NCBI GenBank assembly: GCA_043808305.1 | Contig: JAZDFB010000123.1 | Coordinates: 11,681-75,680, forward strand | DNA length: 64,000 bases | Reading direction: 5' to 3' | Source of the DNA: Planctomycetota bacterium | GTDB lineage: Bacteria; Planctomycetota; MHYJ01; JACQXL01 | In this document: positions 1,516-43,783 of the stretch, piece after piece | Position numbering within the stretch: the stretch's first letter is position 1 | Layout: every line of letters begins with the position of its first letter | Translations under genes and position numbers: made by a program | The notes under the pieces: model-generated | Seen by the model: only the letters and a program-made list of their open reading frames with translations | What the model was told of the DNA's origin: nothing | Database searches by the model: none

Positions 1516-1523
1516 AATTCATT

Positions 1524-1581
1524 ATTCACCACAAAGAGCCTACTCCGCCGTAGTAACTACGCTACGAAGGCTGGACACAAA
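1524..1581. repeat. Right arm of the perfect 58-bp inverted repeat bracketing parB
   Basis: See 362-419. It sits in the unusually long 137-bp parA-parB spacer. Confidence 0.9.
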
Positions 1582-1652
1582 AAGCTCAAAGAAGAAATTT
1601 AATTCTCTGCGTCCTCTATGGCTAAAGGTTAAAACACATTAGTATTTAGCGT

Positions 1653-19645: not shown

Positions 19646-20218
19646 CTAAACTGAGCCGGCCATTGATTTGCCGGACTCAAAAACTTCCTGCAGGGCGGTG
19701 GGATGCTTTTTGATATCACCCTTGTTATCTATGCTCCGGTAAAAACGCTCGCCTTTGTATTCAACATTAATCGTATCAAAGAAATATTTTACGGTTTGCT
19801 TAATGCCATCGAAAAGTAATTTGCCCTTTGTTCCGCCGACCGAGATAAAGAACCCCGCCCTTTTCCGCCCCATATCCCACATAAGAATGTGTTTTCTGGC
19901 CCAGAGCGCCTGGGTTCGGTCAACCAACGTCTTCGCCTGGGACGGCAGATTACAGAAAAATACCGGCGCCGCCAACACGACAATATCAGCGCTCAAAAGT
20001 CTGCTGTAAATCCCTTCCATATCATCATTAAAAATACAATCGCCGGTTTTTAAACAGGCGTTGCACTCGGTGCACGGCTTTATGTTTAAATCACGCATGC
20101 ATAGCTTTTCGATATGCGCGCCGGGCGCGGCGGATAATGCCCCCCTAAGGAATTCTTCCATTAATATATCCGTGTTCCCGTTCTTGCGAGGACTCCCGTA
20201 TAATGCCAATATATCCAT
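19646..20218 (-). CDS. Flavodoxin-like FMN reductase / iron-sulfur flavoprotein family
   Basis: ILALYGSPRKNGNTD, Cys cluster CTECNACLKTGDC, and ADIVVLAAPVFF. Confidence 0.75.
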   Translation of the reverse strand: MDILALYGSPRKNGNTDILMEEFLRGALSAAPGAHIEKLCMRDLNIKPCTECNACLKTGDCIFNDDMEGIYSRLLSADIVVLAAPVFFCNLPSQAKTLVDRTQALWARKHILMWDMGRKRAGFFISVGGTKGKLLFDGIKQTVKYFFDTINVEYKGERFYRSIDNKGDIKKHPTALQEVFESGKSMAGSV

Positions 20219-20403
20219 GGCTATGGTTTATCAATATTTTTGCGGTTAGCAAAAGATATTCATAATAATCTTTCTTGACTTTCCATAGGTTTTTGGTTTA
20301 ATAATACAATTCGCCAAAAGAAATGGTTTCGATGAGTTACTTTTTTAACGCCGAGGAAATAGGCTCTATCGGCTGGATTATCTTACATATAATAATTATT
20401 TCC

Positions 20404-20432
20404 TTGACTTTTTGGCTTGGCTCTGCTATAAG
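20404..20432 (+). promoter_or_regulatory. Sigma70-like promoter candidate for the CsgG-like/surface-protein block
   Basis: TTGACT, 17-nt spacer, TATAAG. A second TTGACT lies at 20275. Confidence 0.4.
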
Positions 20433-20475
20433 ATTTTAAATTAACAGTATTAATGAAATGAAAGGAGTTAACCAA

Positions 20476-21183
20476 ATGACAAAGAATATTATCAGCGGTC
20501 TGGTTGCGGGTCTGGCTTTTAGCCTTGCTATGGGTTGCGGGTCTTCCAGCGTATCTTCCTCATACATTAAGGACACCACCCCGGTTGCAAAATACACGCC
20601 GCCTCCGGCTAATATCCAGCTCAAACGCATTGCCATCCTGCCTTTCAAGGATAAAACCACCAACAGCCCCATCAAAGGCGATGTGGGCAGTATGGCCATT
20701 GACCAGTTGACCACGCTCCTGGTAAATACCGGCCGGTTTTCCGTTATTGAGCGGGAGCTGCTGGATAAGGTTCTGCAGGAACAAGGTTTGGCCAATAAGG
20801 GTATTCTTGACAACGCCACCGCCGCCCAGGTGGGAAAAATTCTGGGCGCCGAGCTGATTTTCACCGGCGCGGTTACCAACTGGGAAGTCAGGGAAGCTAA
20901 ACAAGGCACTTATGTTTTTATAGTCAGTAGCAGCGAAAGAGCGATTGATATCGACCTGGCTATAGACGGCCGGATTATCAACACCACCACCAGCGAGATA
21001 ATGTTTGCCGATTCCGGAGAAATCAAACGCCAGGAAAAAATTTCGTCTACATCAATCCTGGGCGGCTCTCCCGGCGGCTATATCAGGCTGGACCAATCCG
21101 TAGCCGGCAAACAGCTCAGGCTGGCTCTGGATGACATGCTTTCGAAAATTATCCCTAAAGTGGACGCTAAATTCTCCAAGTAA
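20476..21183 (+). CDS. CsgG/HfaB-family lipoprotein (copy 1)
   Basis: Start at MTKNII behind AAAGGAG. Lipobox LAMGC. IAILPFKDKT...MAIDQLTTLLVNTGRFSVIERELLDKVLQEQ...AAQVGKILGAELIFTGAVTNWE matches the CsgG-family core pattern. Confidence 0.75.
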   Translation: MTKNIISGLVAGLAFSLAMGCGSSSVSSSYIKDTTPVAKYTPPPANIQLKRIAILPFKDKTTNSPIKGDVGSMAIDQLTTLLVNTGRFSVIERELLDKVLQEQGLANKGILDNATAAQVGKILGAELIFTGAVTNWEVREAKQGTYVFIVSSSERAIDIDLAIDGRIINTTTSEIMFADSGEIKRQEKISSTSILGGSPGGYIRLDQSVAGKQLRLALDDMLSKIIPKVDAKFSK

Positions 21184-21211
21184 TTTACAATTGCACTAAA
21201 GAGGAGGTTTT

Positions 21212-22813
21212 ATGACAGACAGACTGAAACTTGTGATAATGGCCGCTCTTACCATAAGCGCGGTATTAATGCTGGGTTACGGCGGAGCTTGCGGTTTGGA
21301 TCTGTCTACAAATAATGACGACTCCAGCGGAAGCAGCAACGTGCCTTTACCGGCCCTGGTAACCGCGCCGGTCCCGAATAGCGGGGCAAACAACGTTTTG
21401 GTTAACGCGCAGCTTTCCTGGGCCGCGGTCGGCGATGCAACCTCTTACGATGTCTATTTCGGAACAAACAATCCGCCGCCTTTGGTAACAAACGCCGCCG
21501 GAACGACCTATAATCCCGGCGCGCTTTCTTACAGCGCCGCATATTACTGGCGGATTAATTCCAAGAATTCCGCCGGGGCAACCACCGGCAACCTCTGGAG
21601 TTTCTCAACGGAGGCCGCCCCGCTTCCGTCTCAGGTTACGGCATCTAACCCGGCGGACGGAGCAATCGGCGTCCACACCAACCAGCAGTTAACCTGGACC
21701 CCGGCCGGTTATGCGACCTCTTACGACATTTATTTCGGCATAACCAATCCGCCGCCGCTGTTGACAACCACGGTCGGCGCAAATTGCAACCCCGAAACAC
21801 TGCTCCTAAACACCGTTTATTACTGGCGGGTTGATTCCAAGAATGCTACCGGGACAACAACCGGCGCTATATGGTCTTTCAGCACCGTTGCCGCCAACGG
21901 CATTGCCGTCGACCCTTATATCCAGGGACTGCAATTCTTTGAAGACCTCGATAACGACGATGTCAAAGACGCGCTTGAGCAGCTGTCAACCCTTACGGAT
22001 GCCAACGGCCTGTTCTCATTTGTCAACCAGCTGACTCTGGGCTCGACTATCGCCGTTAATCCCTCCGTAACCGGCACCCACAACGGCGTGGTGTTTACCG
22101 GCAAGATTAAAAGGACCGTTGATGCCCTCACCGGCACGCTGGTTACCTCTCCGTTGACAACATTATTGGCAAACGGCTGGACCGAATTGGAGGTCATTAA
22201 CGTCCTGACCCAGGCCGGACTGACCGGCATTACCGCGGCCGACCTGACAAAAGACCCGATGGAAGGAATAGAACTCCTGGATTACACCACCTTGACAGAC
22301 ACCCATCTTATAAAAATAAGGGCATCCATTGCGATATACTCTTTCCTTTCCGTAATGGACGGTATAATCAATAACGGATTCGCCATATCTTACACGGCAT
22401 TCACCCAGAATCCTAATGCAATACCGTTGTTGCAACAGATGGTTAGTATGATCAATACCGGCCTTTCGGTGCAGATTCTGGTCCAGATAAAACAGGCTAT
22501 GGATATCGCCGCAGGATACTTAGCCTTAGTTGGACAACCCCCGCCGCCGCCGGTTACGGCAAGCGATATTATCAAGGCATCAGTCGCGGTGTCGAATTTC
22601 ATTATTCCCAAGGTTATCGCGGATATTAACTATCTGCCTAATTTAACCCAATGCGCCAACTTGTCCCAAAAACTGGGATTGAGCTTCTATCTTCTCAGGA
22701 ATAAGAACAACCCGACAATCCAGATGGGAACAACCTTGCACTATCTGCCTTCGGTTGGGACGTTCATTACGTTTATCGTTAATGCCGGCGGCACAGATTC
22801 TCAAGGACAATAA
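21212..22813 (+). CDS. Secreted/lipid-anchored protein: two YYWR Ig-like modules plus a Ca-loop C-domain
   Basis: 533 aa. Signal ending LMLGYGGACG. Two about 95-aa modules (LSW..ATSYDVYFG..PPPL..YYWR(I/V).SKN..G.TTG..WSFST). C-domain starts GIAVDPYIQGLQFFEDLDNDDVKD. Confidence 0.8.
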   Translation: MTDRLKLVIMAALTISAVLMLGYGGACGLDLSTNNDDSSGSSNVPLPALVTAPVPNSGANNVLVNAQLSWAAVGDATSYDVYFGTNNPPPLVTNAAGTTYNPGALSYSAAYYWRINSKNSAGATTGNLWSFSTEAAPLPSQVTASNPADGAIGVHTNQQLTWTPAGYATSYDIYFGITNPPPLLTTTVGANCNPETLLLNTVYYWRVDSKNATGTTTGAIWSFSTVAANGIAVDPYIQGLQFFEDLDNDDVKDALEQLSTLTDANGLFSFVNQLTLGSTIAVNPSVTGTHNGVVFTGKIKRTVDALTGTLVTSPLTTLLANGWTELEVINVLTQAGLTGITAADLTKDPMEGIELLDYTTLTDTHLIKIRASIAIYSFLSVMDGIINNGFAISYTAFTQNPNAIPLLQQMVSMINTGLSVQILVQIKQAMDIAAGYLALVGQPPPPPVTASDIIKASVAVSNFIIPKVIADINYLPNLTQCANLSQKLGLSFYLLRNKNNPTIQMGTTLHYLPSVGTFITFIVNAGGTDSQGQ

Positions 22814-22919
22814 TCGGCTGTTAGAACCCCGCCTTTGGCGGGAACTTGTCCCGAGTATTTCCGAGGGATAAATTCCGCGAATTACTTTGGCTGTTATGGT
22901 GAAATAAGAAAGAGGTCCT

Positions 22920-23975
22920 ATGTTAACAAGGTATAAAACGGCGTTACTCGTGGTTGCTGTTATAGGCGCGGCATTAATGCTCGGCTACGTCGGGGCCTGC
23001 GGCAACAGCAAATCAAATAGCGGCGACAGCGGAACTCCTGCACCGGTTGTGGCCGCCACCGGCATTGCCGTCGACCCTTATGTCGAAGGCGTCCAGTTCT
23101 TTGAAGACCTCGATAACGACGGTGTCAAAGACGTGCTTGAGCAATTGTCAACCCTTGCAGACGCCAACGGCGTGTTCACATTTGCCAGCCAGCTAACCCT
23201 GGGCTCAACCCTCGTCCTTAACCCCGCCGTAACCGGCACCCATAACGGCGTGGCTTTTACCGGCAAGATTAAAAGAACCGTTGATACCATCACCGATACG
23301 TTGGTCACCTCGCCCCTGACCACCTTGCTGGCAAACGGCTGGACGGAGTTAGAGGTTGTCAACATCCTGACCCAGGCCGGACTGACCGGCATTACCACGG
23401 CCGACATCAAAATGGACCCCATGGCCGGGATAGAAAACCTCGACGCCGCGACCCTGACCGAGGCGCATCTGGTCAAGATTCGCGCCTCCATCGCCATATA
23501 CTCTTTCCTTTCGGTTATGGACAAGGTCATCACCAGCACGGGCATTACCATCACTTACGATGCTTTTGTGGCCAGCCCGACCGCCATAGCGTTGCTTCAG
23601 AATATGGTCACCTCCATCAACAACGGACTGTCCACCCAAATTCTGACTAATATCGATTCCGCCCTGACAGCCGTCAATGCCATAATAACAGGCTTTGGCC
23701 AGCCGGCGCTTCCCAAGGTTACGGCCGGCGATGTCATCAGGGCTTCCGTAGCCATCTCTAACTATATTATCCCCAAGGTCTTGGTAAATCTGGCTTACCT
23801 GCCCACTCAGCTCGAAGTCACCACCTGGTCGCTCGACCTGGGCAAAAGGTTCTACACCTTAAGAAACAAGACTCATCCGAGCGTTCAGGGCGGGATTACT
23901 CGCGGGTCGCTAACAGATATCGGAAATGCCGTAACATTTATAATTAGTAGCTCCGGGACAGTCATTAACCAATAA
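22920..23975 (+). CDS. Secreted/lipid-anchored paralog consisting of the signal plus the Ca-loop C-domain only
   Basis: 351 aa. Signal LMLGYVGACG. GIAVDPYVEGVQFFEDLDNDGVKDVLEQLSTLADANGVFTF...VTGTHNGVAFTGKIKRTVD is collinear with the C-domain of 21212-22813. Confidence 0.8.
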   Translation: MLTRYKTALLVVAVIGAALMLGYVGACGNSKSNSGDSGTPAPVVAATGIAVDPYVEGVQFFEDLDNDGVKDVLEQLSTLADANGVFTFASQLTLGSTLVLNPAVTGTHNGVAFTGKIKRTVDTITDTLVTSPLTTLLANGWTELEVVNILTQAGLTGITTADIKMDPMAGIENLDAATLTEAHLVKIRASIAIYSFLSVMDKVITSTGITITYDAFVASPTAIALLQNMVTSINNGLSTQILTNIDSALTAVNAIITGFGQPALPKVTAGDVIRASVAISNYIIPKVLVNLAYLPTQLEVTTWSLDLGKRFYTLRNKTHPSVQGGITRGSLTDIGNAVTFIISSSGTVINQ

Positions 23976-23991
23976 TCTGTTCCGATACAAT

Positions 23992-24834
23992 ATGGCTAAA
24001 TTAATTCGTTATTTTGGTTTATCGTGCCTTTTGGCGATGCTGCTGTTGGGCTGCGCTTCGACCTCAACCAGCACCGGTTATGTCAATGACGACAGCAAGT
24101 GCGGCATCTATCCCCCGCCGCCGGCCGCCTTTGCCAAGAAGCGCCTGGCCATAATACCATTCAGCGACAAGACCAACCAGAAATTCACCAAGACTAACCT
24201 CGGCTCCCAGGCCGTGGACATCGGCACCACATTGCTCCTGGCCACCGAGCGTTTCACCCTGGTCGAGCGCGAGAAAATGGACGCCCTGCTGTCCGAGCAG
24301 AAACTGGTCGGCATAGTTGACCCGGAAACGGCCGCCAAGGCCGGCAAAGCGCTGGGCGCGGACCTGATATTTACCGGGGCGGTGACCGATTTCGAAATCA
24401 AGCGCTCCAAGAGCGGCCATCGTTACGGGATTCCCAGCATCGGCAAACTGCCCGCTTTCAGCCTGGGCAATGAAACCCAGGTCCTGGACATATCCATGGC
24501 CGTTGACGGCCGGATTATCGAAACCGAAACCGCCAGAGTGATATTCGCCGATTCGGGCGAAATCAAGCGCCAGGAAACAGCCGGGGGCTGGCATTTCGGG
24601 CTTCAGGGCGGCGCCGGCTATTCTGAAACAGGAGAAATCAGGATAGACGAATCCGCCGCCGGCAAACAGCTCCGCTTCGCGCTGGACAACCTCATCCAGA
24701 AAATGGTGCCCAAAATAGACGCGGCCTACACGGTCCAGCCGCCCGAGCCGCCCAAAGACCTCGAGCCGACCAAAGAACCTGAACCGGCCAAGGAACCCCA
24801 GCCGGCCAAGGAACCGGAACAAAACAATAAATAG
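23992..24834 (+). CDS. CsgG/HfaB-family lipoprotein (copy 2) with a PEPxK-rich tail
   Basis: Lipobox LLLGC. LAIIPFSDKT...RFTLVEREKMDALLSEQ...GADLIFTGAVTDFE, IFADSGEIKRQE, AAGKQLRFALD are collinear with copy 1. The tail is PPEPPKDLEPTKEPEPAKEPQPAKEPE. Confidence 0.75.
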   Translation: MAKLIRYFGLSCLLAMLLLGCASTSTSTGYVNDDSKCGIYPPPPAAFAKKRLAIIPFSDKTNQKFTKTNLGSQAVDIGTTLLLATERFTLVEREKMDALLSEQKLVGIVDPETAAKAGKALGADLIFTGAVTDFEIKRSKSGHRYGIPSIGKLPAFSLGNETQVLDISMAVDGRIIETETARVIFADSGEIKRQETAGGWHFGLQGGAGYSETGEIRIDESAAGKQLRFALDNLIQKMVPKIDAAYTVQPPEPPKDLEPTKEPEPAKEPQPAKEPEQNNK

Positions 24835-24867
24835 AAGCGGCGCCAAAGCGCCGGAAAGAAGTGACTT

Positions 24868-25293
24868 ATGAAAAAAGTGTTTATTACCGGTCTGGTTATT
24901 GCCGGATTGATAGCCGCCTGGGGATGCGGCAAGTCCGCAGACGGCCCCGCTGATAGGGGCAAATCGGAAAAACCAAATACGGCAACCGAACCCAATAAAC
25001 CCGCCCAACCCGCGGCCGCAACCTCCAACACCGTTTCGGCAACGGCTACCGCCGAGGTCAAGCTGGAAGTCAAATCGGTCGTAACGTCCCATACCATAAC
25101 AGATGCCGAAATCGGCCTGAAAGTAAAATGTCCGGTCATGGGTTCCGATATCGTCGTTGATAAGGACACCCTGTCCGCCGAGTACAAAGGCAAAGTATAT
25201 TACTTTTGCTGTCCCGGCTGCCCGGAAGAGTTCAACAAAAACCCCGAAAAATACGCTATACCGGACGCGTCCGCCACGCCTCCTGAAAAATAG
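24868..25293 (+). CDS. Lipoprotein with a C-terminal YHS (TRASH-like metal-binding) domain
   Basis: Lipobox AAWGC. KCPVMGSDIVVDKDTLSAEYKGKVYYFCCPGCPEEFNKNPEKY. Confidence 0.75.
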   Translation: MKKVFITGLVIAGLIAAWGCGKSADGPADRGKSEKPNTATEPNKPAQPAAATSNTVSATATAEVKLEVKSVVTSHTITDAEIGLKVKCPVMGSDIVVDKDTLSAEYKGKVYYFCCPGCPEEFNKNPEKYAIPDASATPPEK

Positions 25294-25310
25294 CTTAGAA
25301 AGCCTGTCTT

Positions 25311-25817
25311 ATGAAACTACCCACGGCAATTACCTCGCTGGAAATAGTCGGCCTGGCCATACAGTCGGAGTCGGAAGCCATCAAGTTTTACCGCCGGATG
25401 AGAAAAGCGGTGCACAATTCCACCGTTAACGACAAGCTCAACTTCCTGATAAACGAAGAGTACAAACACCACCGCGCCCTGAACGAATATTACCGGCATC
25501 GGTTCGGCGGCATAACCCTGTCCCGTCCGGACTCATCGCTGGTCCTCAAGCCGTCCGTGCCCAAGGGCCGGATAACCATTTCCATTCTGATTAAAAGCGC
25601 CATCAAAACCGAAGCCGAATCTGAAAAATTCTTTCTTGACTCCGTGGCCATCGTCGGCGACGTCCAGGGCACGTTGCTTCTCAGATACCTGGCCAAGTCG
25701 GAAAACAGCCACTACCAACTGCTCAAGCAGGAACTGGAAATGATAGAGCAGGGCGTCAAAATAAAGAACATGAAATCGCTCTACCAGATGGATAAAAACG
25801 TGCATTTAGGGCCGTAA
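25311..25817 (+). CDS. Ferritin-like / rubrerythrin-family four-helix protein
   Basis: 168 aa. ESEAIKFY, NEEYKHH, EAESEKFF and SENSHYQ fit a duplicated E...ExxH di-iron pattern. Confidence 0.65.
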   Translation: MKLPTAITSLEIVGLAIQSESEAIKFYRRMRKAVHNSTVNDKLNFLINEEYKHHRALNEYYRHRFGGITLSRPDSSLVLKPSVPKGRITISILIKSAIKTEAESEKFFLDSVAIVGDVQGTLLLRYLAKSENSHYQLLKQELEMIEQGVKIKNMKSLYQMDKNVHLGP

Positions 25818-25852
25818 TATTCCTAAGGCGTGAAAGACTGATTCACCGTTCA

Positions 25853-25880
25853 CCCCGTTAGAGGCACGCCTCTAACGGGG
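25853..25880. terminator. Perfect 13-bp hairpin between convergent genes (no U-tract)
   Basis: CCCCGTTAGAGGC-ac-GCCTCTAACGGGG, followed by three TAGACT(C/T) repeats at 25898-25945. Confidence 0.4.
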
Positions 25881-25938
25881 CAAGAAGAACTCAAATCCCG
25901 ACTCCATAGACTCTTTAGACTCCACAAACTATTTAGAC

Positions 25939-27084
25939 TTACTCAATGTACCCCCTAATCCAAATATTGTTAGAACAGAACTGTCCATTCTTATTGATAA
26001 TAACCCTCACCTTTCTGTCAGCATCAGTCGCCACAATCGCCTCCTTATAGACATTGTTATTTAGGTTAGCGATATTTTGCCAGATGAAGTGGATGGTAGA
26101 CGAGCCCCAGTCAGTTCCGGCACGGCGGCCATAGACCCACAACTGTTGCTCCAACCCCGACGGCACACTCATAGCGTTAAACTGGATTTCCAGAATCACC
26201 GCCTTGACCACCGGCGGTATGAACCCCGGCAGGTCAACTATCTGGTCCACGTTATTGGCCGACTGATCCGTAAAAATCTGCGTCTGGGACTGCAGAAGGG
26301 TCAGCATATCTCCCCCGCTGGCGCCTATCCACTGAAAATTAGAACCGGACTCGTTATAGGTCAGCACCGCCCCGTTGCTGGGCGCGTTAGCCGAAGCCAG
26401 CTTGGACGGCTTGACGCACGAATCCGCAATCTTGCCGCTGGTCACTGCAAGGTCCGCAATCTTCGTCTCCGAAACCGCCTGGTCGGTAATCTCGTTACCG
26501 GTGATTCCCGGTGTAATAGGTCTTGTTATCCCCCCGCCGCTTGGTGTTACATACTTAAACTTACCCGAAGACTGCTCGTAAGTAAGGGCCTGTCCGTCCG
26601 TGGGCGTATTGACCGCCGCTAATTTGCTGGGTTTAATACTTGTCTCCGCCAACTTGTCTCCTGTCACTGCTCCGTCCGCTATCTTGGTTGTGGTAACAGA
26701 GCTGGAAGCCAGTTTCTCGCCGGTCACATTCAGGTTCTTGATATTATCGTTCTCCACAGCCGCAATGGCAATCTTTGCCCTGGTCACACAGGCATCAGCC
26801 AGTTCGGCGCTGGTGACAGCCGGGCTAATCGGCCGGGTGATGGGCGAAGGCGGTATTATCGGCAGAACCAATTTATCCTGCGTGATGGTCTTATCCGCAA
26901 TCTTGTCGTTGGTTACGCATTTGTCCTTCAACTTGGTTGTGGTCACAGAACCGTCTTTGAGCTCCTTTTCTGTTACATTGCCATCGGCAATCTTATCAGT
27001 GGTAACTGCGGACGGTGCAATCCGGGATTCGGTTATCGCATAGGTCGCGATGTTGGCAGTCTTTACTTCATTCGGTTTTAACAT
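25939..27084 (-). CDS. Tail-fibre-like repeat protein (no signal peptide)
   Basis: 381 aa. Degenerate about 11-residue repeats (VTTDKIADGNVT, VTTTKLKDKCVT, NDKIADKTIT, VTTTKIADGAVTGDKLA, SETKIADLAVTSGKIADSCV). Two motifs, GQALTYEQSSGKFKYV and GAVLTYNESGSNFQWI. A compact C-terminal domain. The pattern resembles phage receptor-binding/tail-fibre proteins; this is inference. Confidence 0.6.
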   Translation of the reverse strand: MLKPNEVKTANIATYAITESRIAPSAVTTDKIADGNVTEKELKDGSVTTTKLKDKCVTNDKIADKTITQDKLVLPIIPPSPITRPISPAVTSAELADACVTRAKIAIAAVENDNIKNLNVTGEKLASSSVTTTKIADGAVTGDKLAETSIKPSKLAAVNTPTDGQALTYEQSSGKFKYVTPSGGGITRPITPGITGNEITDQAVSETKIADLAVTSGKIADSCVKPSKLASANAPSNGAVLTYNESGSNFQWIGASGGDMLTLLQSQTQIFTDQSANNVDQIVDLPGFIPPVVKAVILEIQFNAMSVPSGLEQQLWVYGRRAGTDWGSSTIHFIWQNIANLNNNVYKEAIVATDADRKVRVIINKNGQFCSNNIWIRGYIE

Positions 27085-27094
27085 ATAAAACTTT

Positions 27095-27187
27095 CCTTAG
27101 TGCCAGTTAGCAATTACCCGGTGTCAATCGGGTAAGAGCGTTATCTGGCACTTAGTCCCGCAAGCGTAGCTTGACGGGATAACTCAC
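27095..27187. repeat. Nested-hairpin intergenic repeat (TTAGTGCCA / TCCCG..CGGGA family)
   Basis: AGTGCCAG...CTGGCACT encloses TACCCG-gtgtcaat-CGGGTA, then TCCCGCAAGCGTAGCTTGACGGGA. Followed by a CACCACAAAGA-family copy at 27193-27232. Confidence 0.7.
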
Positions 27188-27233
27188 ATTTCATAATTCA
27201 CCACAAAGACACGAAGTCAACAAAGAATTAAAC

Positions 27234-27671
27234 TTATGTATATCTGTGTTTATCTGTGGTTGCATTTTGTTCTATTTCCATAATTAACAGTTTCTCTTCA
27301 ATCTGGAGCCGTCCGGTCTGGGCCTGAAACACCTGTTCCTGCGCCCTTAAGCGGCTAAGTTTGATTTCTGCCCGCTGGATGCTGTTAACTGCCCGGCGGT
27401 ATGCCGGGTCGTAGACCAGCCTGCAGATAACCTCGCTGTCACGCCTCTGCGGGTCGGGGTAATGGGGTTTGCCTTCAAGTAACTCGTCAAAGACCTTTAT
27501 AAAAACCGTCGCCCTGAGCTGTTCTACATCGGCCTGCCGCCTGCGTTTAAGGCATTCCAACCGCTGGCGTTCCTTAATAGCCCTTGCCATCTCATTTGAA
27601 ATAGCTTCTAATTTAACGGCAATCTTCTTAATGCTGTCTTTGAACGCGTAAAACCTGTTACGATTCTGCAT
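27234..27671 (-). CDS. Coiled-coil hypothetical protein
   Basis: 145 aa from MQNRNRF behind AAGGGGG. Heptad-rich and charged (ERQRLECLKRRRQADVEQLRA, LRAQEQVFQAQTGRLQIEEKLL). The 3' end reads into a CCACAGAT-type repeat. Confidence 0.55.
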   Translation of the reverse strand: MQNRNRFYAFKDSIKKIAVKLEAISNEMARAIKERQRLECLKRRRQADVEQLRATVFIKVFDELLEGKPHYPDPQRRDSEVICRLVYDPAYRRAVNSIQRAEIKLSRLRAQEQVFQAQTGRLQIEEKLLIMEIEQNATTDKHRYT

Positions 27672-27786
27672 ATTTTCACCCCCTTTTTGCATTTTTCAGG
27701 GCCTTTTTTGAACCAAATCCTAAGCCCGAAAAACTCATTTATAACCCCGTTATACCCCCATTGTAATGGGGGTTTCGGAGGGGTAG

Positions 27787-27807
27787 CCCCTACCCCCCCT
27801 CCCCCCC
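27787..27807 (-). repeat. G-tract box (minus strand G7 A G7 TA G4) upstream of the coiled-coil gene
   Basis: The plus strand reads CCCCTACCCCCCCTCCCCCCC. An adjacent hairpin CCCCCA-ttgtaa-TGGGGG lies at 27755-27772. Confidence 0.6.
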
Positions 27808-27956
27808 GGCCATACCAGAACTTACTTTGCCCTTAATCCCAGATACCCTATATACGGACAGGTGTTTGTTCTAAACATAATAAGTAGTTGTCCCGGGCTT
27901 ACGGCCAGCCACTCCGCACCGGCAGGAGTGGCTCCCGCATAGAAACCGATACTACC

Positions 27957-28739
27957 CTATGGAGTAGATATCTGCACCTCCATATACTTGCGGCCGTCTA
28001 TGGTGACCCAATCGCAGTGGGATACCCCGGCCGTAGCGAAGGGGCTGTAGGTTGCAGACTGCAGACCGGCAATAATCGCATTGTTCTTATCATTTTCCGC
28101 GGTTATTACAGTTGAATCCCAGTCCGCCTGGACCAGGATTATTCCGCTCTGGATAAGCCGCTGGGCTAAAGCGGCTTTGAGCGCTGCCTTGGACACCGCT
28201 ACATTAAGCGGGCCTCCGGCCAGAATCTCATCATCGCCTCGGAGATGACGCAGAACCGTCTTATCTCCGGTGATGAACGAAACCACCAGCCCGACCAGTC
28301 CCTTGCCCAACTCGGCAACGGCTCCGGTAAATGCCAGTACTTGCCCCATTTGCATGGAGTAAACTTCGTTCTTGGCGTCAACGGCCTCTCGGAACCTCTT
28401 ATTGACCTCTCCGTTGACATCCTCGAACATATGGCTTACCGATGCCAGATACTTCTGGTAGGAGTTCATTGCCTTGAACGCCTGTTTCCGCACGATTTCA
28501 TCTCTGGTCAAATCCGACTTAGAGACGAAGGTGCCATCCATAACCGGCGCATAGCCCGCAGAGGATGGACCGGCTATTTTGGTCTTATAGTCCATCTCAT
28601 TCCCGATAACTAGTTCCGATTTTTCCTTAATGATGTCGGACACTGCCTTCATCACCCGTGCCCTTTGCTCCACCATCAAGGGCGGCGCCTCGCTTAAAGC
28701 CGAGGGCACCATTAATCTTGCCTTAGCAACTATACCCAT
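27957..28739 (-). CDS. Hypothetical protein, 260 aa, no recognisable family
   Basis: Start at MGIVAKARL behind AAGGAGGG (9-nt spacing). No signal peptide and no motif I can name. Confidence 0.6.
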   Translation of the reverse strand: MGIVAKARLMVPSALSEAPPLMVEQRARVMKAVSDIIKEKSELVIGNEMDYKTKIAGPSSAGYAPVMDGTFVSKSDLTRDEIVRKQAFKAMNSYQKYLASVSHMFEDVNGEVNKRFREAVDAKNEVYSMQMGQVLAFTGAVAELGKGLVGLVVSFITGDKTVLRHLRGDDEILAGGPLNVAVSKAALKAALAQRLIQSGIILVQADWDSTVITAENDKNNAIIAGLQSATYSPFATAGVSHCDWVTIDGRKYMEVQISTP

Positions 28740-28939
28740 GTTAAAAACCCTCCTTAACCTGTTAGAACTATGACGCAATAGGCGCCATTGAGTTCTAACG
28801 AGGTTTTCATTGGCCGTTTATGTTAATTTGTTACAATTACCGACTGGTAAACGGCTTTAAACCAGCTTGGCAAAACGGCAAGAAACACCGGGCGGGTTTG
28901 GATGGTTCGCGCATCCGCCCCCCACGAACCCCAGCATTT

Positions 28940-29160
28940 TTTTTAACCGCTAAAATTCTTTCATATAGTATATAACAATAAAACTAAATTTTTTTATGAA
29001 TTCTGGAAAATCCTGGAAAATATTTTATATTTATTTTTGAGCCCCTCTTTTTCATATAATGTATATAAGCGAAAAACAGATTTTGTTCAGGAATTCCGTA
29101 TTTTTTTGCTAAATTTATGAAAATTATTCAAAAAGCAGCTAAATAGTTACGTTTTTAGGT
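28940..29160. other. Strongly AT-rich non-coding block with short direct repeats
   Basis: CTGGAAAAT x2 in tandem. TTCATATAGTATATAA / TTCATATAATGTATATAA about 75 nt apart. Several T6-T8 runs. Confidence 0.5.
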
Positions 29161-29166
29161 TTATCA

Positions 29167-29195
29167 GGGGGAAGGGGTGGAATATAGGGGGTAGG
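29167..29195 (+). repeat. G-tract box (plus strand G5 AA G4 TGGAATATA G5 TAGG)
   Basis: Direct reading. No convincing plus-strand gene lies downstream. Confidence 0.5.
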
Positions 29196-29300
29196 TAAAA
29201 AAGAATAGCTTTGTGCCTCAATACAAGTTAAAATCGTTTTGGGGACAAAAAGAGGGTTATTTTGGATTCGTCGGCGCAGATTATGTTCCGGAAAATCCTA

Positions 29301-36997: not shown

Positions 36998-37828
36998 ATG
37001 AATAAAAAGTTATTGATACCAATTATCATCGCGGTCGGCCTGGTTGCCTGGCTGGTAAGCCTGCTGGCCAAAAATCATTCCGAGGATGTAATCCTTGTTT
37101 CCGGCACTATTGAAGCCACCGAGGTCCATCTGTCATTCCAGGCCGGCGGGAAAATCAAGGAAATATACAAAGAAGAAGGCACAACCGCCAAGCCCGGCGA
37201 GATTTTAGCCCGGCTGGACAAAGAAGAATTCCTGAAAATAAAGAACCAGGCGGAGCTGTTATTGCAGGAAGCAAAGTTCAACCGCGAACGGCTTAGCCAG
37301 GATTATAACCGGGTCGAGGGCCTCTTCCAGTCCGGCGCTGTGTCGGCCCAGCAAAAAGATACGCTCAAAACTAATTTAGAGGTAGCTAAACTGAAAGAAC
37401 AGTCCCTCCAGTCCGGCCTAGATTTAGCCGTGCTGAAATTGGGCTATACCGACCTGGTTTCGCCGATTGGCGGCATGGTCACCGTAAAAAGCGCCGAAGC
37501 CGGCGAAATCGTCCAGGCCGGAGCCGCCATCTTGACGGTTGCGAACCTGACTAACATCTGGGTTACAGGATACATCAAGGAACCGGACCTGGGCCGGGTA
37601 AAACTCAATCAGAAAGCGCAGGTTAAGACAGACAGTTATCCCGGTAAGGATTATCCCGGTTATGTTTCCTTTATTGCCTCCGAGTCCGAATTTACCCCCA
37701 AGCAAATCCAGACCGCCGAAGAACGGGTTAACCGGGTTTACCGGATAAAAATCTCGCTGGACAATACCGGCCAGGTCTTCAAAACCGGCATGCCGGTGGA
37801 CGCGTATCTTCTTCCCAATCAGCCATGA
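36998..37828 (+). CDS. HlyD-family membrane fusion/periplasmic adaptor protein (YbhG-like)
   Basis: N-terminal TM segment, central coiled coil, and LVSPIGGMVT..V..GE.V barrel motifs. Confidence 0.85.
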   Translation: MNKKLLIPIIIAVGLVAWLVSLLAKNHSEDVILVSGTIEATEVHLSFQAGGKIKEIYKEEGTTAKPGEILARLDKEEFLKIKNQAELLLQEAKFNRERLSQDYNRVEGLFQSGAVSAQQKDTLKTNLEVAKLKEQSLQSGLDLAVLKLGYTDLVSPIGGMVTVKSAEAGEIVQAGAAILTVANLTNIWVTGYIKEPDLGRVKLNQKAQVKTDSYPGKDYPGYVSFIASESEFTPKQIQTAEERVNRVYRIKISLDNTGQVFKTGMPVDAYLLPNQP

Positions 37829-38553
37829 TTACAATAAAGACCAGAGACCTGACCAAGAAGTTCGGCAATACCACGGCCGTTGATAACCTTAACATCGAAA
37901 TAGAAGAAGGCTCTATATTCGGGCTGGTCGGCCCGGACGGCGCCGGCAAGACCACCACCATGCGCCTGCTCACCGGCATACTCGAACCCACCGGCGGCGA
38001 CGCCTGGATAGACGGCCGCCATATCATCAAAGATTCCGAAGCCCTCAAAGAAAACATCGCTTATATGCCCCAGCGTTTCGGGCTGTACGAAGACCTGACC
38101 GTCATGGAAAATATCGATTTCTACGCCGACATCTACGGCCTGCCCGCCCAGGACCGCCCGGCCCGGGTCGACCGCCTTCTCCAATTTACCAATCTGGGCG
38201 CATTCAAACAGCGTTTAGCCCGCAATCTTTCCGGCGGCATGAAGCAGAAATTGGGGCTAGCCTGCGCCCTGATTCATAAACCCCGCGTCCTCTTCCTGGA
38301 CGAGCCCACCAACGGCGTCGACCCGGTCTCGCGGCGTGATTTCTGGCAGATTCTTTACCAGTTACTAAAGGAAAAAGTGACTATTTTTTTCTCCACCGCT
38401 TATCTGGACGAGGCCGAACGCTGTAAAAGAATCGGGCTGATGCACAAAGGCAGGCTCCTTAAATACGATGCGCCCGCTGATATCAAAGCGCAAACTAATG
38501 CGGCCTCGCTGGAACAGGCGTTTATTTCTATAATTAATCAATATGAAAAATGA
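37825..38553 (+). CDS. ABC transporter ATP-binding protein (first of two)
   Basis: GLVGPDGAGKTT, LSGGMKQKLGLACAL, LFLDEPTNGVD. Confidence 0.9.
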   Translation: MITIKTRDLTKKFGNTTAVDNLNIEIEEGSIFGLVGPDGAGKTTTMRLLTGILEPTGGDAWIDGRHIIKDSEALKENIAYMPQRFGLYEDLTVMENIDFYADIYGLPAQDRPARVDRLLQFTNLGAFKQRLARNLSGGMKQKLGLACALIHKPRVLFLDEPTNGVDPVSRRDFWQILYQLLKEKVTIFFSTAYLDEAERCKRIGLMHKGRLLKYDAPADIKAQTNAASLEQAFISIINQYEK

Positions 38554-39514
38554 TATCGGGCATGCAGTCCAGGTGACTGATCTGGAAAAGAGATTCGGCT
38601 CTTTTACCGCCGTCAACCGGATAAGCTTCCAGGTCGACAAAGGCGAGATATTCGGCTTCCTCGGACCAAACGGCGCCGGCAAATCAACAACTATCCGGAT
38701 GCTCTGCGGCATCCTGACGCCGACTTCCGGCGCCGGACACGTGGCCGGTTACGACATCATCAGCCAGCCGGATTTAATCAAACAGCATATCGGTTATATG
38801 TCCCAGCGGTTCTCGCTTTACGATGATTTGACCGTTGAAGAAAATATCAATTTCTACAGCGGCATATACCGGGTGCCGGCCCATAAAAAACAGGAGCGTA
38901 AAGAATGGGTCATCCGGATGGCCGGGCTGGACAAATTGCGGTCCAGCCGGACCGGCATCCTGTCCGGCGGCTGGAAACAGCGGCTGGCACTGGGTTGCGC
39001 CGTCATCCACGAACCGGGAATACTGTTTCTGGACGAGCCGACCGCCGGCGTCGACCCGATTGCCCGGCAGATGTTTTGGGACCTCATCAAGCAGGTCTCC
39101 GCAAACGGCGTGACCGTCTTCGTTACCACCCATTACATGGACGAAGCCGAAAACTGCGGCCGGCTGGCCCTGATTTATGACGGCCACATCATCGCCACCG
39201 GCACCCCAAGCCAATTGAAAACAGGCTTCATGAAAGAACAGGTCCTGGCCGTCAGCCTGCCCAACCCGGAGGAATGGATAGAGCCGCTCAACCGGCTGGA
39301 CGGCATAAGGGAAACCGCCCTGTTCGGCGCCACTCTCCACGCCATTGTCGATAATGAATCATCGGCCGCGGCGGCTATAAAAGAAATGCTGGCCGGCCGG
39401 CCCGGCCTGGATTACCGGGTTGAAAAGATACCGCCTTCGCTGGAGGATGTTTTTGTTTCACTGGTAAAATTACATACAAGCCAAAAGGTGCTCCATGAAT
39501 CCGACAAGAATTAG
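38543..39514 (+). CDS. ABC transporter ATP-binding protein (second of two)
   Basis: GFLGPNGAGKST, LSGGWKQRLALGCAV, LFLDEPTAGVD. Start overlaps the previous gene. Confidence 0.9.
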   Translation: MKNDIGHAVQVTDLEKRFGSFTAVNRISFQVDKGEIFGFLGPNGAGKSTTIRMLCGILTPTSGAGHVAGYDIISQPDLIKQHIGYMSQRFSLYDDLTVEENINFYSGIYRVPAHKKQERKEWVIRMAGLDKLRSSRTGILSGGWKQRLALGCAVIHEPGILFLDEPTAGVDPIARQMFWDLIKQVSANGVTVFVTTHYMDEAENCGRLALIYDGHIIATGTPSQLKTGFMKEQVLAVSLPNPEEWIEPLNRLDGIRETALFGATLHAIVDNESSAAAAIKEMLAGRPGLDYRVEKIPPSLEDVFVSLVKLHTSQKVLHESDKN

Positions 39515-40625
39515 GGCTATAGCACGCAAAGAGTTTATCCAGATATTCCGCGACCCGCGCAGCCTGGGACTGGTCATCGCTTTGCCTATGGTTCTGCTCT
39601 TCATGTTCGGCTACGCACTTTCGCTGGATGTCGATAACGTACCCCTGGCCGTATGGGACCAGGACAACTCGCCCGTTTCGCAGGATTTTATCCTCAATTT
39701 CAGCAACTCGCCTTATTTCAAAATACTCGGCTATTTCGGCAGTTATCAGGAACTGCAGTCTTATATAGACCAGAACCAAGCTTTTATGGCGCTGGTTATC
39801 CCGGCCGATTTCTCCGGCAATATAAAATCCAACCGCCCGGCGCCGGTGCAACTATTAGTCGACGGTAGCGATTCCAACACTGCCACCATCGCCCTGGGCT
39901 ACGTCAACGCCGTCACGGCCGGCTATAACAGGAAACTAATGGTCGACAGCCTGTCGCGCCTAGGACTAAGGGCCGCTGCGCCCATCGACCTGCGCCCGCG
40001 GATATGGTTCAACCAGGACATGAAAAGCCGCAACAACATCATCCCCGGCCTGATTGCCGTGATAATGATGGTCATCGCCGCATTGCTCACCTCGCTGACC
40101 GTGGCCCGGGAATGGGAACGCGGCACCATGGAACAGCTTATCTCCACCCCCATCAAACCCCGCGAGCTGGTCATCGGGAAACTGATACCCTATTTCGCCA
40201 TCGGCTTCTTCGATGTCCTGATATCCGTGTTGATGGGCCAGTTTATATTCAACGTCCCCCTGCACGGCAGTGTCTTATTGCTTTTTATATTAAGCGGCAT
40301 ATTCCTGGCCGGCGCCCTGAGCATGGGCATGCTGGTTTCCATTGTGGCCAAGAAACAGCTCCTGGCCAGCCAGATTGCCCTGCTGGCCACTTTCCTGCCG
40401 GCATTTCTCTTGTCCGGCTTTGTTTTCAGCATCGCCAATATGCCTAAAATCATACAGGCCGTGACCTATATCATCCCGGCCCGTTATTTTATCACCATAC
40501 TCAAAGGCATTTATTTGAAAGGCATCGGATTGGAGATATTGGGCGTCGAGGCCCTGTTCCTGTGCCTGTTTGCCTTAGCGGTGTTTAGCCTGGCAACTAT
40601 GTTATTCAAGAAAAGGGTGGCTTAA
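39495..40625 (+). CDS. ABC-2 type transporter permease (YbhS/YbhR-like)
   Basis: 376 aa. KEFIQIFRDPRSL, a large first loop, then five C-terminal TM segments. Confidence 0.88.
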   Translation: MNPTRIRAIARKEFIQIFRDPRSLGLVIALPMVLLFMFGYALSLDVDNVPLAVWDQDNSPVSQDFILNFSNSPYFKILGYFGSYQELQSYIDQNQAFMALVIPADFSGNIKSNRPAPVQLLVDGSDSNTATIALGYVNAVTAGYNRKLMVDSLSRLGLRAAAPIDLRPRIWFNQDMKSRNNIIPGLIAVIMMVIAALLTSLTVAREWERGTMEQLISTPIKPRELVIGKLIPYFAIGFFDVLISVLMGQFIFNVPLHGSVLLLFILSGIFLAGALSMGMLVSIVAKKQLLASQIALLATFLPAFLLSGFVFSIANMPKIIQAVTYIIPARYFITILKGIYLKGIGLEILGVEALFLCLFALAVFSLATMLFKKRVA

Positions 40626-40627
40626 AT

Positions 40628-43782: not shown

Positions 43783-43783
43783 T

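What the first reader, a model, noticed from the sequence alone, without database searches (positions are those of the whole stretch)
20404..25817. Tandemly duplicated CsgG-like lipoprotein plus Ca-loop surface-protein module: candidate uncharacterised export/assembly system
The gene order on one strand is: promoter-like TTGACT-17-TATAAG, CsgG/HfaB-like lipoprotein, a 533-aa protein, a 351-aa protein, a second CsgG-like lipoprotein with a PEPxK tail, a YHS lipoprotein, and a ferritin-like protein. The two lipoproteins are collinear paralogs (IFADSGEIKRQE and AGKQLR.ALD are shared). The 533- and 351-aa proteins share a roughly 300-aa domain with long identical stretches (GIAVDPY.(Q/E)G.QFFEDLDND.VKD.LEQLSTL.DANG, VTGTHNGV.FTGKIKRTVD, SPLTTLLANGWTELEV) and a DxDxDG-type calcium loop. 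In curli systems CsgG is the outer-membrane secretion channel, but nothing here resembles CsgA/B/E/F. The adjacent paralogous proteins may therefore be the cargo or partners of a non-curli CsgG-type channel. The duplication of the whole lipoprotein+cargo unit is unusual.
Basis: partly seen in the sequence, partly recalled or inferred. Interest (0 to 1): 0.7.

Follow-up and report, generated by a model that had tools for sequence, protein, structure and literature searches.

The report
Paired CsgG-like lipoproteins flanking surface-lipoprotein genes
A Planctomycetota operon holds an old, conserved pair of CsgG-family outer-membrane lipoproteins, and one narrow lineage has inserted two genes for an uncharacterised surface-lipoprotein module between them, so it is a new variant of a known protein family and not a duplicated channel-plus-cargo unit.

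Summary
All six genes exist as described and both paralog pairs are real: A1/A2 share 46% identity and B1/B2 share 63% over 304 aa. A1 and A2 belong to the CsgG/HfaB family by Pfam, by profile match to E. coli CsgG, and by predicted fold. They keep both hairpin insertions, but the constriction loop is 6 residues shorter and has no Phe ring. No curli partner genes are present.

The "duplicated lipoprotein+cargo unit" reading is wrong. A1 and A2 are an old heteropair, directly adjacent in six more distant Planctomycetota loci with no B gene between them. In five of those six, ndk and type II secretion (T2SS) pseudopilin genes follow the pair. B genes lie between A1 and A2 only in the window's own clade (four genomes with identical flanking synteny).

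B1 and B2 belong to a large family with no Pfam entry (557 clusters at E ≤ 1e-10). It is a Ca-loop β-sandwich plus helical bundle with no PDB match. Elsewhere it is a stand-alone lipoprotein or the N-terminal module of large surface lipoproteins, including multiheme cytochromes of Desulfuromonadales. Among 139 such loci, CsgG neighbours occur at only two places.

A client or partner relationship between B and the A pair remains possible but is unproven.

The parts
20404..20432 (+). Promoter-like TTGACT-17 nt-TATAAG upstream of A1
   Evidence: Read directly from the sequence. It is a consensus match only. The scan tool did not list it, and promoter-like sites in this region are not clearly above the shuffle expectation.
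20476..21183 (+). A1: CsgG/HfaB-family lipoprotein, A1 orthogroup. 235 aa from the ATG behind the AAAGGAG ribosome-binding site; the ORF itself opens at 20458.
   Evidence: Pfam CsgG 3e-24. The A1-rooted family profile (A3) matches E. coli CsgG at 8e-11 and hhalign probability 97%. AF2 pLDDT 76 with a long beta-hairpin. The top Foldseek hits are CsgG, E = 7e-10. The A1 orthogroup comprises P0060-P0093.
21212..22813 (+). B1: 533-aa lipoprotein with a signal peptide and Cys, two FN3-like repeats, and the B module
   Evidence: ORF. 63% identical to B2 over 304 aa. The B1-type orthogroup (P0003/4/5/7) is 74-92% identical. No Pfam match passes its threshold.
21344..21886 (+). Two tandem ~92-aa FN3-like repeats in B1 (about 21344-21610 and 21620-21886)
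   Evidence: 55% identity between the repeats, E = 8e-34. DNA direct repeats are spaced 276 nt apart (families D2 and D4). Orthologues have one repeat (P0004/5) or two (P0007).
22920..23975 (+). B2: 351-aa lipoprotein that is the bare B module, made of a Ca-loop beta-sandwich (about residues 46-130), a helical bundle (about 132-327) and a small C-terminal beta element
   Evidence: AF2 pLDDT 88, pTM 0.82. No PDB match below E = 0.1; the best is the BcpA pilin domain at E = 0.18. 59 word-index homologues. 557 clusters at E <= 1e-10. No Pfam, NCBIfam or PHROG hit.
21887..22186 (+). 5' part of the B module in B1, probably gene-converted with B2 (partner segment 23049-23348)
   Evidence: 300 nt at 84% identity. 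Sliding windows run from 84-89% nt identity here to about 50-60% in the 3' half. In this segment B1 is 81% identical to the window's B2 but only 67-73% to its own B1 orthologues.
23992..24834 (+). A2: CsgG/HfaB-family lipoprotein, A2 orthogroup, 280 aa
   Evidence: Pfam CsgG 1.9e-22, covering model positions 8-202 of 210. The A2-type profile aligns to E. coli CsgG through both hairpins (probability 89%). The orthogroup P0094-P0112 shares contigs with the A1 type.
24730..24834 (+). Pro/Glu/Lys-rich C-terminal tail of A2 (QPPEPPKDLEPTKEPEPAKEPQPAKEPEQNNK)
   Evidence: Read from the translation. The tail varies among orthologues: short Pro-rich tails in most, and HEAT repeats in the L001 orthologue P0098.
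24868..25293 (+). YHS/TRASH-domain lipoprotein, a putative metal-binding protein
   Evidence: Pfam YHS 1.2e-12. Conserved after A2 in L001 and L150.
25311..25817 (+). Ferritin-like (rubrerythrin-type diiron) protein with no signal peptide
   Evidence: Pfam Rubrerythrin 1.1e-14 and NCBIfam MbfA N-domain 7e-11. Two ExxH motifs are visible in the translation. Conserved after YHS in L001 and L150.

Best explanation
The cluster is one operon of cell-envelope lipoproteins built around an old, conserved pair of paralogous CsgG-family lipoproteins, A1 and A2.

By homology, each of A1 and A2 most likely forms a lipid-anchored oligomeric ring at the inner face of the outer membrane. Two beta-hairpins per subunit would insert into the membrane, as in CsgG. 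The rings could be homo-oligomeric or mixed. The constriction loop is 6 residues shorter than in E. coli and has an aliphatic residue where CsgG has its Phe ring. Any pore would therefore differ from the curli peptide channel.

B1 and B2 are not part of the ancestral unit. They are Ca-binding lipoproteins made of a module (beta-sandwich plus helical bundle) that other bacteria use as the N-terminal, membrane-proximal part of large cell-surface lipoproteins, including multiheme cytochromes. In the window's clade the B genes were inserted between A1 and A2, duplicated, and partly homogenised by gene conversion. They are now co-transcribed with the pair and with a YHS metal-binding lipoprotein and ferritin-like proteins.

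The simplest functional reading is that B1 and B2 are co-expressed envelope or surface partners of the A1/A2 ring, possibly its clients.

Shown here: homology, orthogroups, gene orders, domain architecture and fold predictions.

Inferred: oligomerisation, membrane insertion, localisation of B, and any A-B interaction.

My estimates:
- A1/A2 form a membrane-inserted ring or pore: about 0.6.
- Some functional A-B link exists: about 0.45.
- B is actually translocated through an A pore: about 0.15.
For: - CsgG-family membership: Pfam above the cut-off; profile vs PDB CsgG at 8e-11; hhalign probabilities 97% and 89%; CsgG chains as the top Foldseek hits, E = 7e-10.
- Both hairpin insertions are present at the homologous positions, unlike the hairpin-less fold relatives LpoB, PelC and GNA1162.
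- The A1 and A2 orthogroups share contigs. They are directly adjacent in L148, L149, L151, L152, L153 and L154.
- The A1-B-A2 order occurs in the window, L001/L074, L150 and L155, with 16-28 nt junctions in the window.
- The B1-type and B2-type orthogroups predate the split of these genomes. There is a gene-conversion signature in the window.
- The B module heads lipoproteins that carry 5-13 CxxCH motifs, F5/8 type C, DUF285, or PKD with pectate lyase.
- The B family has 557 clusters at E <= 1e-10.
Against: - No oligomer model or experiment supports ring or pore formation.
- AF2 confidence is low at the hairpin tips, and the second arm of hairpin 2 in A1 is not modelled.
- The Phe ring, which the CsgG literature describes as required, is absent (PMC4594475).
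- All A1-B-A2 loci share the same flanking genes (FMN reductase, rubrerythrin, a 164-aa ORF). They are therefore a single evolutionary event, not independent evidence of a functional link.
- B-family genes elsewhere have no conserved export partner. Their recurrent neighbours are housekeeping genes.
- CsgG passes unfolded chains through a 0.9 nm constriction (PMC4594475). That is an awkward fit for 35-55 kDa lipoproteins with well-folded domains.
Confidence: 0.5

Rival explanations
1. One reading: a non-curli CsgG-type outer-membrane channel whose adjacent paralogous proteins B1 and B2 are its secreted cargo, with the channel+cargo unit duplicated in tandem.
For: The lipoproteins are CsgG-family members with hairpin insertions. 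The B genes sit inside the pair in four related genomes. The B module is typical of surface-exposed proteins, which must cross the outer membrane somehow. There is a precedent for a non-curli CsgG homologue needed for export of anchor proteins, HfaB in Caulobacter. The paper was located (PMC6707917), but the export role is stated from my own knowledge.
Against: The unit was not duplicated as a whole. A1/A2 (46% identical, adjacent without B in six other loci) and B1/B2 (63% identical) are separate duplications of different age. Only two distinct places among 139 B-module loci have any CsgG-family neighbour. B and A1-A2 lie on different contigs in MAG JAZDFP01. The Phe clamp is missing. The B proteins are lipid-anchored, confidently folded proteins, whereas CsgG transports unfolded chains (PMC4594475).
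Confidence: 0.15
2. The adjacency is incidental. B genes landed in the A1-A2 intergenic region in one lineage and have no functional tie to the CsgG-like pair. A1/A2 and B1/B2 act independently in the envelope.
For: A single clade shows the arrangement, with identical flanks. Both families are normally encoded apart. B-family genes elsewhere are single genes next to housekeeping genes.
Against: The insertion is tightly packed (16-28 nt junctions). It has been kept while A1 diverged to about 78-82% identity and the B orthologues to 74-87%. Either a B1-type or a B2-type gene is retained at that exact position in every member of the clade that was seen.
Confidence: 0.3
3. A1/A2 are accessory outer-membrane or periplasmic ring components of a type II secretion / pseudopilus machine. 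B-module lipoproteins would then be type II-style surface-lipoprotein substrates.
For: In five of six more distant loci the pair is followed, with short gaps, by ndk and then GspG-like, minor pseudopilin, GspK-like and PilM/N-like genes, while the upstream genes differ. Known surface lipoproteins such as PulA and MtrC/OmcA use type II secretion (my own knowledge, not checked here). Other proteins of this fold form rings around envelope machines, for example FlgT, HpaA and PelC. The A2 tail (Pro/Glu/Lys-rich, or HEAT repeats in L001) looks like a periplasmic reach or interaction element.
Against: The five loci share the same downstream genes, so this may be plain synteny. A housekeeping ndk gene sits between the pair and the pseudopilins. 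L152 and the window's clade lack the linkage. No T2SS gene turned up among the window ORFs scanned. The literature searches here found no report linking CsgG-fold proteins with T2SS.
Confidence: 0.12
4. The operon is a metal or oxidative-stress envelope module. The YHS lipoprotein and ferritin-like proteins define the function, for example periplasmic metal capture and cytoplasmic iron handling. A1/A2 and the Ca-binding B proteins would be structural or transport helpers.
For: YHS and one to three rubrerythrin-like genes flank the A-B-A core in the window, L001, L150 and L155. Both ExxH diiron motifs are intact. The B module has an invariant His and is fused to cytochromes in other phyla.
Against: The YHS/rubrerythrin context is limited to the same single clade. 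The A pair elsewhere has no such neighbours. The ferritin-like protein has no signal peptide, so it is in a different compartment.
Confidence: 0.1

Closest known systems
CsgG, the curli (type VIII) secretion channel of E. coli (PDB 4UV3, 4Q79, 6L7A, 6SI7)
   Same: Same Pfam family (PF03783) and the same lipoprotein signal. The core fold is the same, with CsgG chains as the best Foldseek hits. Two hairpin insertions sit at the positions of the transmembrane hairpins.
   Different: Only about 13-17% identity in the structural alignments. The constriction loop is 6 residues shorter. The Phe56 position holds Val (A1) or Leu (A2), and the Tyr51 position holds Pro in A1. Hairpin lengths relative to E. 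coli are -4 and -7 residues in A1, and +6 and -3 in A2. No csgA/B/E/F genes are present. The protein occurs as a conserved pair of paralogs, whereas CsgG is a single homononamer-forming gene.
HfaB, the CsgG homologue of the Caulobacter holdfast anchor (PMC6707917)
   Same: A CsgG-family lipoprotein working outside curli, encoded next to the proteins it helps place at the outer membrane.
   Different: HfaB is a single gene with HfaA/HfaD partners. No similarity between the B proteins and HfaA/HfaD was tested here. The B proteins are lipoproteins with a different, uncharacterised fold.
Hairpin-less ring or accessory lipoproteins of the same fold: PelC, LpoB, GNA1162, FlgT, HpaA, CT253
   Same: The core alpha/beta fold is shared (Foldseek E = 1e-8 to 1e-6). 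A1 also passes the Pfam LpoB cut-off marginally, at 24.0 bits against 22.3.
   Different: A1 and A2 have the two long hairpin insertions that these proteins lack. The NCBIfam LpoB equivalog model is far below its threshold, at 28.5 bits against 110.6.
CnaB / SdrD-B-type Ca-binding beta-sandwich stalk domains of surface proteins and pilins (e.g. BcpA, PDB 3RKP)
   Same: The B-module beta-sandwich has an EF-hand-like DxDxDGxxDxxE loop. Its only structural neighbour is a pilin CnaB-type domain. Like these domains, it sits at the cell-proximal end of surface proteins.
   Different: The match is weak (E = 0.18, 98 columns). No Pfam model hits. The attached ~200-residue helical bundle has no counterpart in the PDB.
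Surface-exposed lipoprotein multiheme cytochromes of metal-reducing bacteria (e.g. MtrC/OmcA-type)
   Same: In Desulfuromonadales the B module is the N-terminus of lipoproteins with 5-13 CxxCH motifs and weak MtrC-like or cytochrome c7 hits.
   Different: B1 and B2 in the window have no heme motifs at all. They share only the N-terminal module.

Membership tests
CsgG/HfaB protein family (Pfam PF03783) | Match to the family model above the curated gathering score | tested here: met
   A1 scores 85.9 bits and A2 80.0 bits against a cut-off of 20.8. The family profile hits E. coli CsgG chains at E = 8e-11. hhalign probability is 97% for the A1-rooted profile and 89% for the A2-type profile.
CsgG/HfaB protein family (Pfam PF03783) | N-terminal signal peptide with a lipobox cysteine (outer-membrane lipoprotein) | tested here: met
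   A1 has ...LAMGC|GSSS and A2 has ...LLLGC|ASTS. The Cys is conserved across both orthogroups. Actual lipidation and sorting cannot be tested here.
CsgG/HfaB protein family (Pfam PF03783) | CsgG core fold | tested here: met
   AF2 model of A1 has pLDDT 76. The top 9 Foldseek PDB hits are CsgG chains (best E = 7e-10; TM-scores 0.38-0.54).
CsgG-type peptide translocator (curli-like channel) | Two beta-hairpin insertions per subunit (TM1, TM2) that build the transmembrane barrel | tested here: met
   Insertions are present at both homologous positions. TM1 is 20 aa (A1) or 30 aa (A2) against 24 in E. coli. TM2 is 21 or 25 aa against 28. A2 aligns through both hairpins. AF2 models a 20-residue-per-arm hairpin in A1, but the second arm of hairpin 2 is unresolved.
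CsgG-type peptide translocator (curli-like channel) | Nonameric assembly into a 36-stranded barrel (PMC4594475) | not testable with these tools
   Only monomer prediction was available. No multimer modelling or experiment was possible.
CsgG-type peptide translocator (curli-like channel) | Constriction loop with a Phe ring followed by an H-bond donor (Asn) and a Tyr ring, described as required (PMC4594475) | tested here: not met
   The loop is 6 residues shorter. The Phe56 position holds Val/Ile (A1) or an invariant Leu (A2). The Asn55 position holds Asp/Asn. The Tyr51 position holds Tyr/Phe in A2 but Pro in A1. The two profile alignments place the gap differently, but neither yields a Phe ring.
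Curli / type VIII secretion system | Companion genes csgA/csgB (amyloid subunits) and csgE/csgF (accessory factors) in the locus | tested here: not met
   No such Pfam families appear in the cluster or among the 36 window ORFs scanned, nor in sister loci L001, L150 and L148-L155.
Holdfast anchor system (HfaA/HfaB/HfaD) | HfaA- and HfaD-like partner proteins next to the CsgG homologue | not tested
   B1 and B2 were not compared directly with HfaA/HfaD. They have no Pfam or NCBIfam hit of any kind.
LpoB (PBP1B activator) | Match to the LpoB equivalog model and a hairpin-less compact domain | tested here: not met
   TIGR02722 scores 28.5 and 25.1 bits against a cut-off of 110.6. The Pfam LpoB match is partial and marginal. 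A1 and A2 carry the long hairpin insertions.
CnaB/SdrD-B-like Ca-binding stalk domain (for the B-module beta-sandwich) | Beta-sandwich fold with an EF-hand-like Ca loop | tested here: inconclusive
   The loop motif DLDNDGVKDVLE is present, and the acidic positions are conserved across the family. The Foldseek match to the BcpA pilin is only E = 0.18. No Pfam hit.

The most novel reading that the evidence does not exclude
A1 and A2 form a heteromeric CsgG-type outer-membrane pore or ring that serves as a dedicated route or dock for bringing B-module lipoproteins to the cell surface, possibly together with the pseudopilus genes that neighbour the pair in other Planctomycetota. That would be a previously undescribed surface-lipoprotein export pathway. 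It would bear on a module that also heads many lipoprotein multiheme cytochromes in metal-reducing bacteria.
Probability: 0.1. Interest if true: 0.8.

Novelty: new variant of a known kind. Interest (0 to 1): 0.45.

Why it matters
CsgG is understood almost only as the curli channel, and non-curli members of the family are poorly explored. This locus shows three things. First, a clade of Planctomycetota keeps two diverged CsgG paralogs as a fixed adjacent pair, which raises the question of hetero-oligomeric or stacked rings with a non-Phe constriction. Second, in most genomes that pair travels with pseudopilin genes. Third, the genes wedged into it here belong to a sizeable family with no Pfam entry, whose module heads large surface lipoproteins, including multiheme cytochromes of Desulfuromonadales. 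A defined function for that module would matter for work on surface display and extracellular electron transfer. None of this is shown to be a new secretion system, so for now the value lies in sharper annotation and testable hypotheses.

Tried and rejected
- Searching the PDB with A2 alone (phmmer) found no CsgG. The family profile was needed.
- The broad 46-sequence B alignment was too divergent to seed locus searches. A 31-sequence alignment worked.
- Pfam, NCBIfam and PHROGs give nothing for the B module. Foldseek against the PDB gives no significant match despite a confident model.
- Clustering the neighbours of B-module genes across 139 loci recovered only lineage synteny with housekeeping genes: a Cys/Met PLP enzyme, NFACT, SpoU, MurJ, the DNA polymerase III delta subunit, thymidylate synthase and an AP endonuclease. 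No export partner emerged.
- Literature searches for CsgG-like lipoproteins, CsgG in Planctomycetes, CsgG paralogs, and planctomycetal T2SS found nothing on such a pair or on the B module.
- I considered and rejected LpoB-like or PelC-like identity for A1/A2, because the hairpin insertions are present and the LpoB equivalog model fails.
- I rejected a recent whole-unit tandem duplication, because the two paralog pairs have different ages and histories.
- I looked for T2SS genes in the window and found none among the ORFs scanned.
- The third fold-search slot (viral library) and the third homologue search were left unused, as they were unlikely to change the verdict.

Full report
**What is there**

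The region 20.4-25.8 kb carries six closely spaced + strand genes.
- A1 (20458/20476-21183) and A2 (23992-24834) are lipoproteins that pass the Pfam CsgG model far above its cut-off, at 85.9 and 80.0 bits against 20.8.
- B1 (21212-22813, 533 aa) and B2 (22920-23975, 351 aa) lie between them.
- A YHS-domain lipoprotein (24868-25293) and a ferritin-like rubrerythrin-type protein (25311-25817) follow.

A1 and A2 are 46% identical (E = 9e-63). B1 and B2 are 63% identical over 304 aa (E = 5e-135). B1 also has two FN3-like repeats that are 55% identical to each other. The promoter-like hexamers exist at 20404-20432 but are only a consensus match. An AAAGGAG site ahead of the ATG at 20476, together with the 235-aa database orthologues, suggests that this ATG is the real A1 start.

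The closest relatives are metagenome-assembled genomes labelled Candidatus Brocadiia or Planctomycetota.

**The CsgG-like proteins**

A profile of the family finds E. coli CsgG chains in the PDB at E = 8e-11. hhalign gives 97% probability. An AF2 model of A1 (pLDDT 76) has CsgG chains as its best Foldseek matches (E = 7e-10, TM-score about 0.5). After these come hairpin-less lipoproteins of the same fold: CT253, GNA1162, FlgT, HpaA, PelC and LpoB.

What separates CsgG from those relatives is a pair of hairpin insertions that build the 36-strand barrel, and a constriction with Phe, Asn and Tyr rings (PMC4594475).
- Both insertions are present in A1 and A2. TM1 is 20 and 30 residues against 24 in E. 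coli, and TM2 is 21 and 25 against 28. The A2-type profile aligns to E. coli CsgG through both.
- The constriction loop is 6 residues shorter. At the Phe56 position A1 has Val and A2 an invariant Leu. Asn55 is matched by Asp/Asn. Tyr51 is matched by Tyr/Phe in A2 but by Pro in A1. The two alignments place the gap differently, but neither gives a Phe ring.

These proteins are therefore homologous to CsgG and have its architecture, but they lack the curli-type clamp. No CsgA/B/E/F-like gene occurs in the cluster, among the window ORFs scanned, or in sister loci.

**The pair is old and does not depend on B**

Homologues of A1 fall into two orthogroups, an A1 type of about 234 aa and an A2 type of 250-283 aa, that repeatedly share contigs. 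In six loci from more distant Planctomycetota (L148, L149, L151, L152, L153, L154) the two genes are directly adjacent with nothing between them. In five of those six they are followed by ndk and a block of GspG-like, minor pseudopilin, GspK-like and PilM/N-like genes, while the upstream genes differ.

The order A1-B-A2 appears only in the window, L001 (= L074), L150 and L155. All of these share the same flanks: FMN reductase on the opposite strand, rubrerythrin-like genes and YHS. They represent one evolutionary event. The window lacks the upstream rubrerythrin-like gene and 164-aa ORF, and the last rubrerythrin, that its sisters have.

**The B proteins**

B2 is essentially a bare module: signal peptide, lipobox Cys and a Ser/Gly linker, then a beta-sandwich (residues 46-130) with an EF-hand-type loop, a helical bundle (132-327) and a small C-terminal beta element. 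The AF2 model is confident (pLDDT 88, pTM 0.82). It has no PDB neighbour below E = 0.1; the nearest is a pilin CnaB-type domain at E = 0.18. No Pfam, NCBIfam or PHROG family matches.

The family is not small. A profile search of 1.84 billion representatives gives 557 clusters at E <= 1e-10 and 267 at E <= 1e-30. In Planctomycetota the members are stand-alone lipoproteins of about 340-360 aa. In Desulfuromonadales, Campylobacterota, Muiribacteriota, Denitrovibrio and others, the module is the N-terminus of lipoproteins of about 500-2400 aa. Many of those carry 5-13 CxxCH heme motifs. Others carry F5/8 type C, DUF285, or PKD plus pectate-lyase domains. This fits a membrane-proximal stalk or anchor module of cell-surface lipoproteins.

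**Is B linked to CsgG?**

I scanned 139 B-module loci (91 with at least 5 kb of flanks, 1.38 Mb of flanks in total) with a CsgG-family HMM. Neighbours appeared only in L001/L074 and in one unrelated locus, L100, where the gene is on the opposite strand. Other Planctomycetota keep B next to thymidylate synthase. One MAG (JAZDFP01) has B on one contig and A1-A2 with the pseudopilin block on another. An unbiased clustering of B neighbours recovered only housekeeping synteny.

Within the window's clade, on the other hand, the B position has been held while A1 diverged to 78-82% identity. The B1-type and B2-type genes (56-62% identical to each other, 74-92% within each type) predate the split of these genomes. 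L001 keeps only B2, L150 and L155 keep only B1, and the window keeps both.

Some are family-invariant motifs such as SPLTTLLANG. The rest reflect probable gene conversion of the first ~300 nt of the module, which shows 84-89% nucleotide identity against about 50-60% further on. In that segment the window's B1 is closer to its own B2 (81%) than to its B1 orthologues (67-73%).

**Interpretation**

The best-supported account is an envelope-lipoprotein operon built around a conserved CsgG-family heteropair, into which one lineage inserted B-module genes and which now sits next to YHS and ferritin-like genes. Ring or pore formation by A1/A2 is inferred from homology and the retained hairpins. A functional tie to B is inferred only from operon membership in one clade.

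Translocation of folded, lipid-anchored proteins of 35-55 kDa through a CsgG-like 0.9 nm constriction would be unprecedented (PMC4594475), although the shortened loop without Phe leaves the pore geometry open. The rivals are incidental adjacency, a role for A1/A2 beside a pseudopilus/T2SS machine, and a metal-handling module. None can be excluded with the present data.

**Novelty and verdict**

The proteins are members of a known family in a new arrangement: a fixed paralog pair with a degenerate constriction and no curli partners. They are combined with an uncharacterised but widespread lipoprotein module. I rate this a new variant of a known kind, of moderate interest.

Noticed in passing
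window 25939-27084 (- strand), and 27234-27692, 27957-28778, 29301-29723 (- strand): The 381-aa protein immediately downstream of the cluster has phage tail-fibre-like repeats (phrog_892, E = 9e-29). It sits exactly where synteny with sister loci L001 and L150 ends: their second rubrerythrin and their GGDEF and response-regulator genes are missing here. The next three ORFs have no Pfam or PHROG hit. This may be a phage-derived or mobile insertion.
   Followed up: partly
L024:3200-6121, L013:9941-12046, L037, L090, L099 and many others: In Desulfuromonadales and Geopsychrobacteraceae the B module is the N-terminus of lipoproteins with 7-13 CxxCH motifs. These have repeated cbb3-type cytochrome c domains plus c7 and weak MtrC-like hits. 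The module has no Pfam family, and its model has no PDB match.
   Followed up: partly
L148:8001-14890, L149:5378-12862, L151:7285-14043, L153:1877-8906, L154:509-7354: There is a conserved block A1-A2-ndk-GspG-like-two minor pseudopilins-GspK-like-PilM/N fusion-172-aa ORF in other Planctomycetota, with variable upstream genes. No secretin or ATPase gene is seen in the block.
   Followed up: partly
L001:9072-10166 (P0098): The A2 orthologue of the closest relative carries C-terminal HEAT repeats where the window's A2 has a Pro/Glu/Lys-rich tail. The A2 C-terminus is therefore a variable extension, possibly for interaction with other proteins.
   Followed up: no
window 21887-22186 and 23049-23348: There is a gene-conversion signature between the tandem paralogs B1 and B2, confined to the 5' part of the shared module.
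   Followed up: yes
L100:320-3236: This is the only unrelated locus where a B-module protein (706 aa, no hemes) lies next to a divergent CsgG-family lipoprotein (Pfam 1.7e-13), on the opposite strand and convergent with it. It could be chance or an independent association.
   Followed up: partly
window 29759-32404 (- strand): An 881-aa protein with five FN3 domains and an RCC1-like beta-propeller. It is another large, probably secreted or surface protein near the cluster.
   Followed up: no
window 442-2444 (- strand); 36998-41758; 42391-45118: A parB-parA pair lies at the left end of the window. There is also an HlyD-like gene with two ABC ATPases and two ABC-2 permeases, and a TldD/PmbA metallopeptidase pair. 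These look like ordinary housekeeping and transport genes.
   Followed up: no
window 20001-30000: GC skew is negative (-0.06 to -0.11) across the cluster although its genes are on the + strand. The + strand genes upstream (4-18 kb) have positive skew. This may be a codon or amino-acid composition effect of the Thr/Ala/Pro-rich lipoproteins.
   Followed up: no
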